Origin: Iphione sp. A-MEVVRFRX5
Taxonomy: Eukaryota
DNA: 64,000 nt
Assembly: GCA_976226885.1 (NCBI GenBank)
Contig: OZ320316.1
Location: 102,796,001 to 102,860,000, forward strand
Reading direction: 5' to 3'
Part shown: positions 46,732-51,301 of the stretch, piece after piece
Position numbering within the stretch: position 1 is the first letter of the stretch
Layout: each line of letters begins with the position of its first letter
The notes under the pieces: model-generated
Seen by the model: the letters and a program-made list of their open reading frames with translations, nothing else
What the model was told of the DNA's origin: nothing
The model's database searches: none
Made by a program: the position numbers and the translations under genes

Positions 46732-48314
46732 TTATACACACGCACGCACCTCTTGTAGCTGACTGTCCACACCTGCTTCTGCTGCTGCTACCGCTGCTGC
46801 TGCTGCTGTTACTGGCGATGTCGTCTCCTAAACAACCATTAATCTCATTACGTATAACAGTAGCTATGAACTATACCCTCCCACTTTCTGTTCAGGATTC
46901 AATGTGACTTATGCCATCTGGATAATAATATACATCGGTGTGGTCAGTCTGCTTTCTTCATACATAAAGCGTGCACGCAATAATTAAGCACAGGCTGTTC
47001 CGCCTGGCATATAAATCTGCCTATTGCTCAGTAATAACAACTTGTTCTACTGCAACAACTTCATTAATTATGCTAACGCACATCATTACTTATGTTGACT
47101 CATAGCTAACATGACGCATGACACATGTTGCTTATATACAATACCTCATACACAGATGGGTCCCTCCATATAGGGCTCATTCTTATTCTTCTTCTTCTCC
47201 TTCCCCGTCTTCCTCGTTCGTCATCATCATCGTCATCATCATCATCATCTTCAAATCTCCTCATTCTTCTCTCGACACGTCTCCTAGCCCTTCTATACCT
47301 GATATCCTGACACCTGCTCACTCCGTACCAGCAAGTAACTGCGGCCGCAATAACTGCGCAAACCACCACTGACACTGCTCCCGCAACTATTGGAGTCCCG
47401 TAGCCGCTCTCACTGCTCTCCTTCTTTTTTCCTCTGTTGTTTGCACCTGCTGACCCCGCTGCGCCTGACTCAGTAGTTGTTAATCCGGACTCGCTAGCCT
47501 TCGGTCGCCCCAGAGTAGTTTCCCCCCCACCCTCCCTTCGGGTTGACGGAGTATCTGATGTCTTCGGCCTATCCGTTGACTTCTTTTTGCTTGTTAGCAT
47601 AGTTGAATCTGTGCTCTGATACCTACTTGTTGACTTGGGGTCTGGGAGTGCTGTTCCTTTACCAGTCTCTCGAGCAGTAGGTGACGACAGCGATGTTGCT
47701 TCTTCAGACTGTGTAGGTTCAGGTTTAGTTAACTTTGTGTTCTCCGTTCTTGATGATTGATCACCTCTGCTCTTCCGAGATGTTACAATAGTGGACTGAT
47801 CGGTGGTCATTTGTGGTGTTACGTTGCTTGGCCTTTCCGTCAGAGAGCGCCCACCCCAACTACTTGTGGTTGTAGCAGTCGTAGTTATTGTGCTAACAGT
47901 GGTGGCGGTAGGGATGCTGCTGCTGCTGCTGCTGCTGCTGCTTCTGCTGCTGGTGGTGCTGCTACAGTCAGACGTAACTGCTACACGTTTAGGCACTTTC
48001 CGTAATGATGCACAGTTAAAGTCGACGCTCTGATGTCTCACATCCAAATATGTCACGTTTGGAAACAACTTGAAAATCCTGCGTCTGATATCCGTGATCA
48101 TACAACCGCCCCAATCCAACGCCCTCATTACTCCATCTGGTCTAAACTCATGTAGAAATGGGTTGATCTCACCCCTGCATCTCATCATAGGTGGTCTACA
48201 CCTCCCACACCTCAACGGACACCTATCCCATGCGCCACACTCTGATGAAAAAGACAACATAATACTAAGTATTGCCACTAGTGTTGCTAAATGATGCGCT
48301 CTCAGACTCGTCAT
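46732..48314 (-). CDS. Type I membrane protein A (signal peptide, Cys-rich/LRR-like head, Ser/Thr mucin stalk, TM, charged tail); probable intron 46828-47144
   Basis: ORF 47106-48314: hydrophobic N-terminus, CPLRCGRC, Ser/Thr-rich middle, TM IVAGAVSVVVCAVIAAAVTCWYGV, Arg/Asp runs. Donor GAG|GTATTG and acceptor GTTGTTTAG|GAG join in phase 0 to a 31-codon exon. Confidence 0.8.
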
Positions 48315-48877
48315 CCTTGCCTACCAACTTCGAGACACCACTACCACTTTTGCCAAACTCCAGCTCCAAACTAGCAGCCCGCTCGTGCGAGTAACCACCC
48401 CGGACCTAATGACGTTTTTCCGCTCACATCTCTAAACCTCCTCCTCCTCCTCCCCTCATGTGAACCCGATCGCAGTTTTATCTGTAGTCCACACACACAC
48501 TATTTCCTTGTATCAGTGTTGACCACTCTCACTCCATCCTGCTCTTATCTGTGACCTGTCATGACCTCTCCTCCTCCCCCTTCTACGTCGTTAGTTTCGC
48601 CCTGCCTCGTTCCTGATAACAAACAGCTGGCGGCGAACATTAATTACGCCCCTCCTATTCATCCCGAACCCTCCCGAACACAAAAAACATTCCTTAAAGT
48701 ATGTGCTCTGGGACTTATTTGATAGTTTACCTCATTCACCGTTCAACTTAATTGGCTTTAACATTCCGTGCCATTCTTATCAATAATCTGTGTGTAAATT
48801 CACTACTACTATTATCCGGCAGCATCTCCCGACTGCTAATCAGTGGTCACGTGTTGCGTCATCTTACGCTCGGCAAG

Positions 48878-49677
48878 ATGCATCACGCAGCCGCCATTTG
48901 TTTCTTTATCTTCGTCACTCCCATCATTGCTGGAGACTTATTGTGTAAAGAGTGCATATGCTACAAAACTTCACTTCATTGCAACTCGGTGGCCACATCA
49001 TTCTTTTATAGCCTGCATGTACGTTATCCGGAGTACCAGCATCTGTACCTAAACGCACCCCACATCACCGACGAAGAACACGCGCTCCGTTCCCGCCTGC
49101 TCGAAGTGTTTCCTAACCTTGTCTTTGTGGAAGCAGTTGACATCAAGCGACAAGTACTATTCCGCTTTAATTTACAAACCTCACCCGCAACAAGTACTAC
49201 AACTACCACCACCACAACATCCCAAGTCTCAACTTCGACTGTCACAATCAACACATCACTTGCACGTGATGAAAGTGAAATACTTCGCAGTCTTTTAACC
49301 ACTACGTCTGACAACGTCGCCATTACTCGCCTGACCTCCTTCACCATCTCCACAACCACCACTATCGAACACGAGACAACAACCGCATCTGATACATCCA
49401 CTGAGAGTGACCAGCTAATTCCATCCATTGGGCGCGAAAAAGTTCTTTCCACGTCTGCTGAGCTTCTTCCGGACGTTGTAACTTACTCCATCTCAGGAAC
49501 TATCCTGCTGGTAGTTGTGATCGGAGCAGTTGTCATACCGTGTGTGCACTACCGCCTGTATGCACGTCTCCTGCGACGAGCAAGACACGAAGACACCTTG
49601 CCGCCATTACGCACTCCACTCGTACCCTTACGTACACTCAAATCACGACTGGATAGACTATCAGACAGACTATCAGT
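48878..49677 (+). CDS. Type I membrane protein B, exon 1 (signal peptide, Cys-rich/LRR-like head, Thr/Ser stalk, TM)
   Basis: ATG 48878 MHHAAAICFFIFVTPIIAG, CKECIC, Thr-rich stalk, TM ISGTILLVVVIGAVVIPCV followed by basic residues; donor GT|GTATGT at 49678. Confidence 0.8.
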
Positions 49678-50010
49678 GTATGTAATATTTAATTATTATT
49701 ATTATATGAGCACCACTAGAACTGCTAACTCTCCCATTTGGTATTATTATTATATTATTACCGTGTCTGACTAGTAACAATTGCTATTCAATACGCTATT
49801 ATTATTCGTTTATACCCCTTTTTTTAACCTCCACATGTACACATTTGTACACATTATACGTGTATGCATGTGTGCACGTGCATGCACGTGCATGAATGTG
49901 TGCCTGCGTATATGTACCAGTATGTATTTGTGTGTGTATGTATGTGTGTACTGTACAACACTATTATTTGTAAGTCCCCATTGAATCCCCATACCTTATG
50001 TTCATTGTAG

Positions 50011-51301
50011 CTATACTGGACCCAATGTGTGTGACATATCCCTGCCATTACCACAAATGCCTTCACCGACGTCTACACCGGAAGAGCCCACCGCTATCTC
50101 CACCCCTGCGCCTCCTCCTTCCAATGATGTCCCCCCTGACACCACCCTTGCTACTGTGTCCTCATCCTGTTCACCCCCGCAACCAACTCCTGGTCCCTCT
50201 AGGCTTAGTACTTTTCAACCACGCCCCCTTACGCCCCGTAACGTGTCCTTTAGTGACACTGTCCTCTACATCGATGCTCCCCCACCCACCCGTTCGCATT
50301 CTGACACCTCTGACTTAAGCGCCGCCTCTACTGTCTTGCTAGACCCAAAAGAACATTGCACAACTCACGATATTGGTAACATGACTGACTTCGACACAGA
50401 CCCGGTCTACAATGATGATGGTTCTAAGGCCGTCACTCAGCAGGCTCGACTACCACCTCCACTACCCCCACCTCGCCCTCCCAGACCACCAACCACCTCC
50501 ATGACAACCACACCCTCTCGTGATTGTGACACTTATGACAGTACCAACGCCGACGCTGATCCTACTCATCCCCCCTGCACTGTGCCAGCAATGCCCGTAC
50601 TAACACCTTCGCGTGTTGCTGATACCATAGCTACTGCCTCACCTATGCCCACCATGAGTTCTCTCTTCCTTGCTACAACTAACCCCAGACCTGCTTCCTC
50701 CCCTCCACCACCACCACCACCACCACCACCACCACCACCACCACCACCACCACCAGACATGCCGCATGAAACATATATGACTCCACCATCTGATCCCTCA
50801 CCACCTGCTATAACTACTGTTTGCAGCCATGTCGAACAACGACCCTTAACCCACTCTTTAGCTATCTACACTACACCTCCTTCGAACTGTACTACGCCAA
50901 CTGAAGGAGAGAGGGTACCCTTCCGCCCATCTTCTCTGTGTATCCCAAGGCCCTCCATTTCCTCCACGCCTCCTACTCCTCGTACCAAGAACGGACAACG
51001 ACAACAGCAGATACCAGGGGTACCTGCTACCACCGCTCCCCTCTTCAGTCTTACGCCGCCTCCTACGTTTGAAACAGTATCTGCCTTGTCTCCCACCGAC
51101 ACACCGCCATCCACGCCGCGAGTAGGGCGTCGTCGGCCTCGTCACCTGTCTGAAAGCTCGTCTGTCTCCACGACTTCATTGGCCTCCTCATCGACCCTTT
51201 CCACACCTGTGTCTTGCAACGCCCACCCCAATGATCCATCACACAGCTTCCTTCGTAGTGGTCATTGTCGACGCTGTACAGCTAGGCATCGTCACCCAGA
51301 G
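50011..51301 (+). CDS. Membrane protein B, exon 2 (Pro/Thr/Ser-rich cytoplasmic region), truncated by assembly gap
   Basis: Acceptor TTCATTGTAG| at 50010 joins the 49678 donor in phase 2 and in frame; open for 430 codons up to the N-run. Confidence 0.7.

What the first reader, a model, noticed from the sequence alone, without database searches (positions are those of the whole stretch)
46732..51301. Divergent pair of apparently paralogous LRR-like, mucin-stalked type I membrane proteins carried by the Polinton
Seen: two head-to-head genes (48314 minus, 48878 plus; 563 bp apart) have the same architecture: signal peptide, CxxxCxxC/CxxCxC cap, a shared segment (A: MITDIRRRIFKLFPNVTYLDV; B: HITDEEHALRSRLLEVFPNLVFVEAV), Ser/Thr stalk, one TM, an RRAR juxtamembrane motif and an intron in the tail. 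Established: the Polinton core is non-enveloped capsid genes; surface glycoproteins are not core. Inference: a captured, duplicated LRR-type receptor mimic expressed from a shared bidirectional promoter, used for immune evasion, superinfection exclusion or cell-to-cell spread. This is a candidate undescribed accessory module.
Basis: partly seen in the sequence, partly recalled or inferred. Interest (0 to 1): 0.85.

Follow-up and report, generated by a model that had tools for sequence, protein, structure and literature searches.

The report
Maverick virus carries paired surface receptors
A virus-like jumping element (Maverick/Polinton) with hundreds of copies in this genome keeps an ancient head-to-head pair of predicted cell-surface proteins with a small leucine-rich-repeat head, which likely act on the host cell the way adenovirus immune-modulating membrane proteins do, a kind of gene not reported for these elements in the papers searched.

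Summary
The two genes sit inside an intact 21-kb Maverick and recur head-to-head beside the protease/capsid genes in 40 of 40 stretches fetched from this genome. Their heads are as conserved as the protease and minor capsid while synonymous sites are saturated. Head A is a one-repeat LRR module. Head B is not provably LRR by fold, and the direct A-B match is insignificant. A second Maverick lineage (capsid 38% identical) carries the same pair, inverted, and bridges A to B, so paralogy holds through intermediates. The spacer is rich in GATA sites. Sixteen unnamed A-like proteins occur in other assemblies. Best reading: a non-virion, adenovirus-E3-like host-modulating cassette (about 45%). No expression or binding is shown. 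Not found in print in the searches run.

The parts
34236..34306 (+). 6-bp target-site duplication (34236-34241) and left terminal inverted repeat (34242-34306) of the Maverick
   Evidence: 65 nt, 100% complementary to the right arm
36807..41087 (+). protein-primed DNA polymerase B-like ORF (name recalled from motifs and position), C-terminal NADAR domain; frame open upstream with C2H2 fingers
   Evidence: (PF08719 E 8e-13)
41169..41801 (+). A32-like packaging ATPase
   Evidence: PF04665 E 1e-3, under the curated cut-off
42768..43868 (+). retroviral-type integrase with chromodomain
   Evidence: rve E 3.5e-8, Chromo E 3e-6
44627..46009 (+). major capsid protein-like ORF (label from size, position and recall; no Pfam hit)
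45990..46487 (+). adenain-like maturation protease ORF (label recalled from His/Asp/Cys motifs; no Pfam hit)
47145..48314 (-). gene A exon 1: leader, single-LRR head, Ser/Thr stalk, TM, juxtamembrane Cys, basic tail ending in a Trp-x-Asp-Pro-x-x-Tyr motif; predicted phase-0 donor at 47144
47961..48230 (-). gene A head (90 aa): N-cap with 4 Cys, one LRR, short C-cap with 2 Cys
47334..47390 (-). gene A predicted transmembrane helix (aa 309-327)
46750..46827 (-). gene A predicted exon 2 (26 aa, phase 0/0); a similar small exon seen in about a third of relatives
46501..46536 (-). gene A predicted 36-nt micro-exon 3 (acidic, 12 aa); its donor at 46500 lies 13 nt from the protease stop codon on the other strand
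   Evidence: donor column in 25 of 25 aligned; 28 of 40 loci on the A strand, 0 of 40 on the other
48315..48877 (.). 563-bp divergent spacer with four WGATAA sites (about 48483, 48550, 48614, 48782); predicted shared promoter
48878..49677 (+). gene B exon 1: leader, 4-Cys cap and degenerate LRR-like head, Ser/Thr stalk, TM, Pro-Cys juxtamembrane motif; predicted phase-2 donor at 49678
48932..49180 (+). gene B head (83 aa), distant paralogue of head A via the second lineage
49490..49546 (+). gene B predicted transmembrane helix (aa 205-223)
50011..51301 (+). gene B predicted exon 2: at least 430 aa Pro/Ser/Thr-rich cytoplasmic tail with a poly-proline run; runs into N at 51302
53404..54132 (-). 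conserved 242-aa ORF of unknown function flanking the pair in both lineages
55255..55325 (-). right terminal inverted repeat (55255-55319) and target-site duplication (55320-55325)

Best explanation
The two genes are an ancient, selected, head-to-head pair of paralogous predicted type I membrane proteins fixed in two Maverick lineages, and they likely work together as a non-virion, host-modulating cassette like adenovirus E3, displayed on the cell in which the element is active. Shown: synteny, conservation, A's single-LRR head, homology chain A-C1-C2-B. Inferred: one GATA-site-rich promoter drives both spliced transcripts; the O-glycosylated stalks lift the heads above the glycocalyx; the A-type protein binds a conserved host surface partner and uses its Tyr/acidic tail (Asn-x-x-Tyr plus a C-terminal PDZ-binding motif in the second lineage) to internalise or re-sort it; the B-type protein, with a long disordered poly-proline tail, couples this to cytoskeletal or signalling adaptors. 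The predicted result is that the carrier cell escapes recognition or killing while particles are made.
For: 40 of 40 stretches chosen from A/B hits hold both heads head-to-head, 39 of 40 beside protease/capsid genes in the same order. 11 of 19 usable stretches chosen by capsid hit hold both; 6 of the 8 without still hold A's micro-exon, i.e. lost by decay. Head identity 62% (A) and 52% (B) against 56-57% for protease and minor capsid, median pS 0.82-0.85 against pN 0.26-0.35, trees sharing clades with the capsid tree. A is LRR-like by profile (TLR3 ectodomain E 2e-9 summed over repeats), fold (AF2 pLDDT 86; at least 46 of the top 50 rows are LRR proteins by my reading, best Z 7.8, rmsd 3.2, 83 aligned; Z 8.1) and language-model features. 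Second lineage (capsid 38%, polymerase about 40% identical): C1~A prob 98%, C1~C2 97%, C2~B 75%; B profile scores C1/C2 at 13-14 bits against -1.3 for 131 ordinary LRR proteins; starred split {A,C1,external} vs {B,C2}; same phase-2 tail donor in 8 of 11 C2 genes. Tails: Glu-Ser/Thr-x-Val at the C-terminus in 13 of 13 C1 proteins with four Val codons; Asn-x-x-Tyr in 12 of 16 external homologues; poly-Pro in 15 of 21 B tails against 1.1 expected. WGATAA 95 against 25.6 +/- 4.7 in shuffles, control introns 55 against 53. One second-lineage copy has an IAP gene in the same arm. Spliced, opposite-strand, ER-targeted genes do not fit a non-enveloped capsid (established knowledge).
Against: No expression, localisation or binding is shown. 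Heads are strongly conserved, whereas adenovirus E3 proteins are described as rapidly evolving (PMC4858740, abstract), which fits a structural or self-recognition role as well. B's fold search is inconclusive (best Z 5.5 to a non-LRR enzyme; LRR rows at Z 3.5-4.7) and direct A-B similarity is no higher than A's to ordinary LRRs. The B branch is very long, so the tree split may be a long-branch effect. GATA enrichment is absent in the second lineage (16 against 16.7). No PDZ-type terminal exon was found for first-lineage A. The window's own B tail lacks the Phe-Glu-Ser/Thr-Ile-Pro-Leu motif seen in 12 of 21.
Confidence: 0.45

Rival explanations
1. Egress or spread module: the pair coats a membrane around the capsid or marks the cell surface to pass particles to neighbouring cells, B's poly-proline tail recruiting actin machinery (comparable to vaccinia A33/A36, recalled) and the heads acting as adhesins.
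For: Fixed position next to protease and capsid genes and co-inheritance with them; conservation at the level of virion-morphogenesis proteins; poly-Pro tails; a nematode Maverick carries a type I membrane fusogen (10.1101/2022.07.12.499685, passages).
Against: Neither head resembles a fusion protein; no other long TM-bearing ORF in the window's element; A is transcribed against the capsid block and the cassette is inverted between lineages, so it is not part of the structural transcript.
Confidence: 0.25
2. Superinfection exclusion or kin recognition: integrated copies express the pair to occupy or remove the entry receptor, or heads on neighbouring cells recognise each other, limiting further invasion by related elements.
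For: Conserved heads point to a conserved partner; endocytic-type tail motifs; intact frames in many integrated copies.
Against: Dozens of subfamilies and recent near-identical copies coexist in one genome, which argues against strong exclusion in the germline; no receptor is known.
Confidence: 0.2
3. Passive cargo or host-domesticated genes: host LRR genes picked up and carried without use to the element.
For: Spliceosomal introns are host-like, and vertebrate Maverick core genes are reported intronless (PMC8097293, passages); the 16 external homologues have unknown context.
Against: Purifying selection across saturated synonymous sites, presence in lineages with 38% capsid identity, and no copy outside a Maverick-type context among those examined except three stretches with no core gene in view (L091, L191, L194).
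Confidence: 0.07

Closest known systems
Maverick/Polinton (adintovirus-like) elements
   Same: pPolB, ATPase, integrase, capsid-like and protease-like genes, AGTAGT termini, 6-bp target duplication, 20-22 kb; variable accessory regions and IAP genes are described (PMC8097293 passages; PMC8502044 section 3.2).
   Different: Described accessory membrane-active genes are PLA2X, gasdermin-like and cupiennin-like (PMC8502044 section 3.2); none is a signal-peptide/LRR/stalk/TM protein. Vertebrate elements are reported intronless in two facing modules; here the core is on one strand and the pair is spliced.
MFUS-1 of nematode Mavericks
   Same: A type I membrane glycoprotein fixed in a Maverick lineage (10.1101/2022.07.12.499685, passages).
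   Different: MFUS-1 is an 866-aa class III fusogen; A and B have 83-90 aa LRR-type heads, mucin stalks, long tails, and come as a divergent pair.
Adenovirus E3 membrane proteins (CR1 family, E3/49K, RID alpha/beta)
   Same: A block of TM-containing host-modulating proteins next to structural genes in a related virus lineage (PMC4858740 abstract; E3/49K as a glycosylated type I protein, search listing; paired RID subunits and tail sorting motifs recalled).
   Different: No homology tested or expected: E3 heads are Ig-like (recalled) and fast-evolving; these are LRR-type, conserved, and divergently transcribed.
Single-LRR membrane proteins GPIb-beta / GPIX, with mucin-stalked GPIb-alpha
   Same: Single LRR, TM, acylated juxtamembrane Cys, heteromeric assembly, mucin stalk in GPIb-alpha (PMC8976409, passages); best LRR rows for B's model are GPIb ectodomain chains (Z 4.5-4.8, rmsd 3.5-3.6).
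   Different: Vertebrate platelet genes; no sequence match; head and stalk are combined in one chain here and tails are far longer.

Membership tests
Maverick/Polinton element | terminal inverted repeats with 6-bp target-site duplication | tested here: met
   7 of 20 related stretches showed matching TIR/TSD pairs within the fetched span
Maverick/Polinton element | integrase, packaging ATPase, protein-primed PolB | tested here: met
   rve over cut-off, Pox_A32 E 1e-3; the 1426-aa polymerase has no Pfam PolB hit and is named from recalled motifs
Maverick/Polinton element | double jelly-roll capsid and adenain-like protease | not tested
   named from size, order and recalled motifs; no Pfam hit, not folded
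Extracellular LRR protein (gene A) | LRR fold with Cys-rich N-cap | tested here: met
   Pfam gives no LRR hit for 30 of 30 heads
Extracellular LRR protein (gene B) | LRR fold with Cys-rich N-cap | tested here: inconclusive
   4 invariant cap Cys; about 22 of 50 rows LRR at Z 3.5-4.7, best row non-LRR Z 5.5; no sequence hit; homology to LRR-type C2 at prob 75%
A/B paralogous family | detectable common ancestry beyond generic LRR likeness | tested here: met
   transitive only; direct tests fail
Type I membrane mucin-stalked protein | N-terminal signal, S/T stalk, one TM, basic cytoplasmic flank | tested here: met
   hydropathy only: TM in 36 of 39 A and 36 of 39 B frames with a start codon; cleavage and glycosylation not testable
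Viral fusogen (MFUS-1 type) | class I-III fusion ectodomain | tested here: inconclusive
   no fusion protein among listed fold matches; ectodomain heads of 83-90 aa are too small for MFUS-1-like architecture
Adenovirus E3-like immunomodulator | surface expression and binding or removal of a host immune protein | not testable with these tools
   needs expression and binding assays

The most novel reading that the evidence does not exclude
A whole branch of animal Mavericks encodes its own two-subunit, spliced LRR receptor system, an independently evolved counterpart of adenovirus E3, expressed in GATA-driven (blood or gut) cells and transcribed antisense into the capsid genes. It would be genetic evidence that these elements have a somatic infectious phase under immune pressure, and it defines a minimal one-repeat LRR receptor family spread across other assemblies.
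Probability: 0.35. Interest if true: 0.85.

Novelty: new variant of a known kind. Interest (0 to 1): 0.7.

Why it matters
Whether integrated animal Mavericks are true viruses with a life outside the germline is an open question (PMC8097293, abstract start: particles not observed). A cell-surface gene pair kept under selection across lineages as far apart as 38% capsid identity is hard to explain for a purely intragenomic transposon, and it gives concrete handles: two small ectodomains to use as baits, predicted splice junctions to score in RNA, and a promoter motif that predicts the tissue.

Tried and rejected
Direct A-B comparison: BLASTP nothing; hhalign 5% and 2.8%; broad A profile scores B at 5.6-8.2 bits but 131 ordinary LRR proteins (themselves picked by the A profile) at 11.5-12.8. 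Single-sequence searches of the 5.8-billion set: no hit for A or B heads among proteins of similar length; the profile search of longer proteins returned only five proteins already in the query and four multi-LRR/Toll-like proteins. B was never searched by profile against the large libraries, so its outside range is unknown. Viral and metagenome contig scans: nothing usable (two short matches not followed). Complex prediction of the two heads: no answer. Search for A's fourth exon: no conserved acceptor or PDZ-type terminal exon. RRAR rejected. Atlas lead for B (ECPIP family, 0.82) is under the tool's 0.9 mark. A third, very distant polinton group on four small contigs and two chromosome loci shows no head match at 18 bits and no comparable TM gene. 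Earlier findings: none. One row of alignment A1 has its first codon read as Met by the tool.
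Full report
Setting. The window holds one intact Maverick/Polinton at 34242-55319: 65-nt perfect terminal inverted repeats, a 6-bp target duplication, and on the plus strand a 1426-aa polymerase-like ORF, ATPase, integrase, small and large capsid-like ORFs and a protease-like ORF (the polymerase, capsid and protease names rest on recalled motifs, size and order, not on a Pfam hit). Nine copies at 97-100% identity exist in G000, a 1.18-Gb genome whose organism I did not determine; an invertebrate animal is my inference.

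Observation. Gene A starts at 48314 (-) and gene B at 48878 (+), 563 bp apart. Each has a hydrophobic leader, a four-Cys cap, a Ser/Thr stalk and one TM segment (hydropathy only). RRAR is present in both window proteins but in 2 of 36 A and 0 of 36 B relatives; the conserved juxtamembrane features are a Cys (36 of 36 A) and Pro-Cys/Phe (34 of 36 B).

Conservation. All 40 ten-kb stretches I fetched from these lists hold both heads head-to-head, 39 next to protease and/or capsid genes in the window's order. As a check not chosen by A/B, I took 20 capsid hits, mostly ones missing from my A/B lists and so biased towards damaged copies: one was cut by a contig end, 11 of 19 hold both heads, 8 hold neither within 7.3 kb; 6 of those 8 keep A's micro-exon and 7 of 8 match a pair-bearing relative up to a deletion or insertion. 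Among 26 subfamily representatives the heads are 62% and 52% identical, against 56% protease, 57% minor capsid, 69% major capsid and 70% integrase; synonymous sites are saturated (median pS 0.82-0.85, pN 0.26-0.35), and several clades recur in the A, B and capsid trees, with distance correlations of 0.38-0.54. Stalks and tails vary freely in length and sequence.

Fold. A: no Pfam hit, but its profile matches Toll-like receptor ectodomains (best E 2e-9, summed over several repeats, single stretch weak); the AF2 model (pLDDT 86) gives a list in which at least 46 of 50 rows are LRR proteins by my reading of the titles (best Z 7.8; 8.1; the tool warns that Z under 8 alone can be a common arrangement), and the atlas's ten best family hits share a family or clan, all LRR families shown (0.89-0.91). 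The head is an N-cap, one repeat and a two-Cys C-cap. B: confident model (pLDDT 87) but inconclusive matches: about 22 of 50 rows LRR, including GPIb chains at Z 4.5-4.7, under a non-LRR best row at 5.5; no sequence hit.

Paralogy. Direct tests fail and B scores lower on the A profile than ordinary LRR proteins do. A profile search of 1.84 billion representatives found 16 unnamed proteins that match the A head in one stretch, 15 with stalk and TM; all are singletons from ENA or Logan without names and their context could not be fetched. One of them, used on G000, exposed a second Maverick lineage with capsid 38% and polymerase about 40% identical to the window's. Of 13 such stretches all hold two LRR-head genes, C1 and C2, head-to-head in 11, with protease/capsid genes in view for 11; the cassette is inverted relative to the window. 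A further stretch (capsid 55%) has the window's arrangement. Profile comparisons give C1~A 98%, C1~C2 97% over 83 columns, C2~B 75% over 65 columns, C2~A 91%, C1~B 48%. The B profile scores C1 and C2 at 12.6 and 13.7 bits, ordinary LRRs at -1.3. The tree splits A+C1+external from B+C2 with 100/99 support, with a long-branch caveat. So one old duplication is the simplest reading.

Gene structure (comparative; no RNA listed). The best donor after the TM is phase 0 in 32 of 36 A relatives, right after a Tyr motif, and phase 2 in 35 of 36 B relatives and 8 of 11 C2 genes. B's second exon is an open Pro/Ser/Thr frame of 410-1039 codons in 19 of 20 relatives (ends include read-through into a likely further intron), with poly-Pro in 15 of 21 against 1.1 expected and a Phe-Glu-Ser/Thr-Ile-Pro-Leu type motif in 12 of 21 against 0; a comparably long frame behind C2 was seen in 2 of 5 copies checked. 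A has a 36-nt acidic micro-exon in 28 of 40 loci, 0 of 40 on the other strand, whose donor aligns in 25 of 25 sequences. In the intronless C1 genes the Tyr motif is followed directly by a similar Met-Ile-Glu stretch and the protein ends in Glu-Ser/Thr-x-Val in 13 of 13, a class I PDZ-binding pattern (recalled); 6 of 15 external proteins end in Ser/Thr-x-Val/Ile/Leu and 12 of 16 carry Asn-x-x-Tyr. The micro-exon donor lies 13 nt from the protease stop, so A's next exon must lie antisense to the structural block or beyond; I could not find it.

Promoter. The spacer is 496-716 bp in 30 first-lineage copies; WGATAA occurs 95 times against 25.6 +/- 4.7 in dinucleotide shuffles, in 30 of 30, while control introns show none of this excess; the second lineage shows none either. 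The copies are related, but at synonymous saturation this still implies selection. GATA factors as blood-cell and gut regulators is recalled knowledge.

Mechanism. I commit to a non-virion, E3-like host-modulating cassette (0.45), with egress/spread (0.25), superinfection exclusion (0.2) and passive cargo (0.07) as rivals; arguments are in their sections. Synteny, selection, A's fold and the homology chain are shown; splicing, surface display, co-expression, partner binding and function are inferred.

Literature. Searches: Maverick/Polinton with transmembrane, signal peptide, leucine-rich repeat (9 papers), adintovirus with membrane protein, with intron/accessory genes (20 of 119 listed), with mollusc/glycoprotein/spliced/IAP, with PDZ. 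None of the listings describes such a pair. I saw passages of 10.1101/2022.07.12.499685, PMC8097293, 10.64898/2026.10.13.758929, 10.1101/2025.02.07.637071, PMC8976409; passages and section 3.2 of PMC8502044; the abstract of PMC4858740; E3/49K papers only as search listing. I did not open supplements: the unnamed 'Adintoc' families of PMC8502044 or Repbase entries could include these ORFs, and subscription papers are not searched.

Verdict. A real, previously unannotated accessory module of a known element class: new variant of a known kind, interest 0.7.

Noticed in passing
window 36258-41087: The polymerase ORF carries a C-terminal NADAR domain (E 8e-13) and an upstream in-frame stretch with C2H2 fingers and no ATG, suggesting a spliced 5' end.
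   Followed up: partly
L180:3212-3826: An IAP (BIR) gene in the right arm of a second-lineage Maverick, followed by a family of paralogous 200-280 aa ORFs with no Pfam hit.
   Followed up: partly
L220-L228, L235 (G000 contigs C54, C34, C60, C64) and L229-L234: A third, very distant polinton group (polymerase about 26%, integrase about 28% identical) on small unplaced contigs and two chromosome loci; lacks the membrane pair; the small contigs may come from another organism or from free elements.
   Followed up: partly
window 53404-54132 (-) and 54160-54560: Conserved 242-aa ORF flanking the pair in both lineages, with what look like further upstream exons; function unknown.
   Followed up: no
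window 34700-36260: Left arm has short frames bounded by GT/AG signals, probably further spliced accessory genes.
   Followed up: no
G000: Unusually large and diverse Maverick load: about 1000 capsid candidates and dozens of subfamilies, many with intact frames.
   Followed up: partly
window 20351-21290 and 9736-11221: Tandem arrays with 64-nt and about 230-nt periods in the host flank.
   Followed up: no
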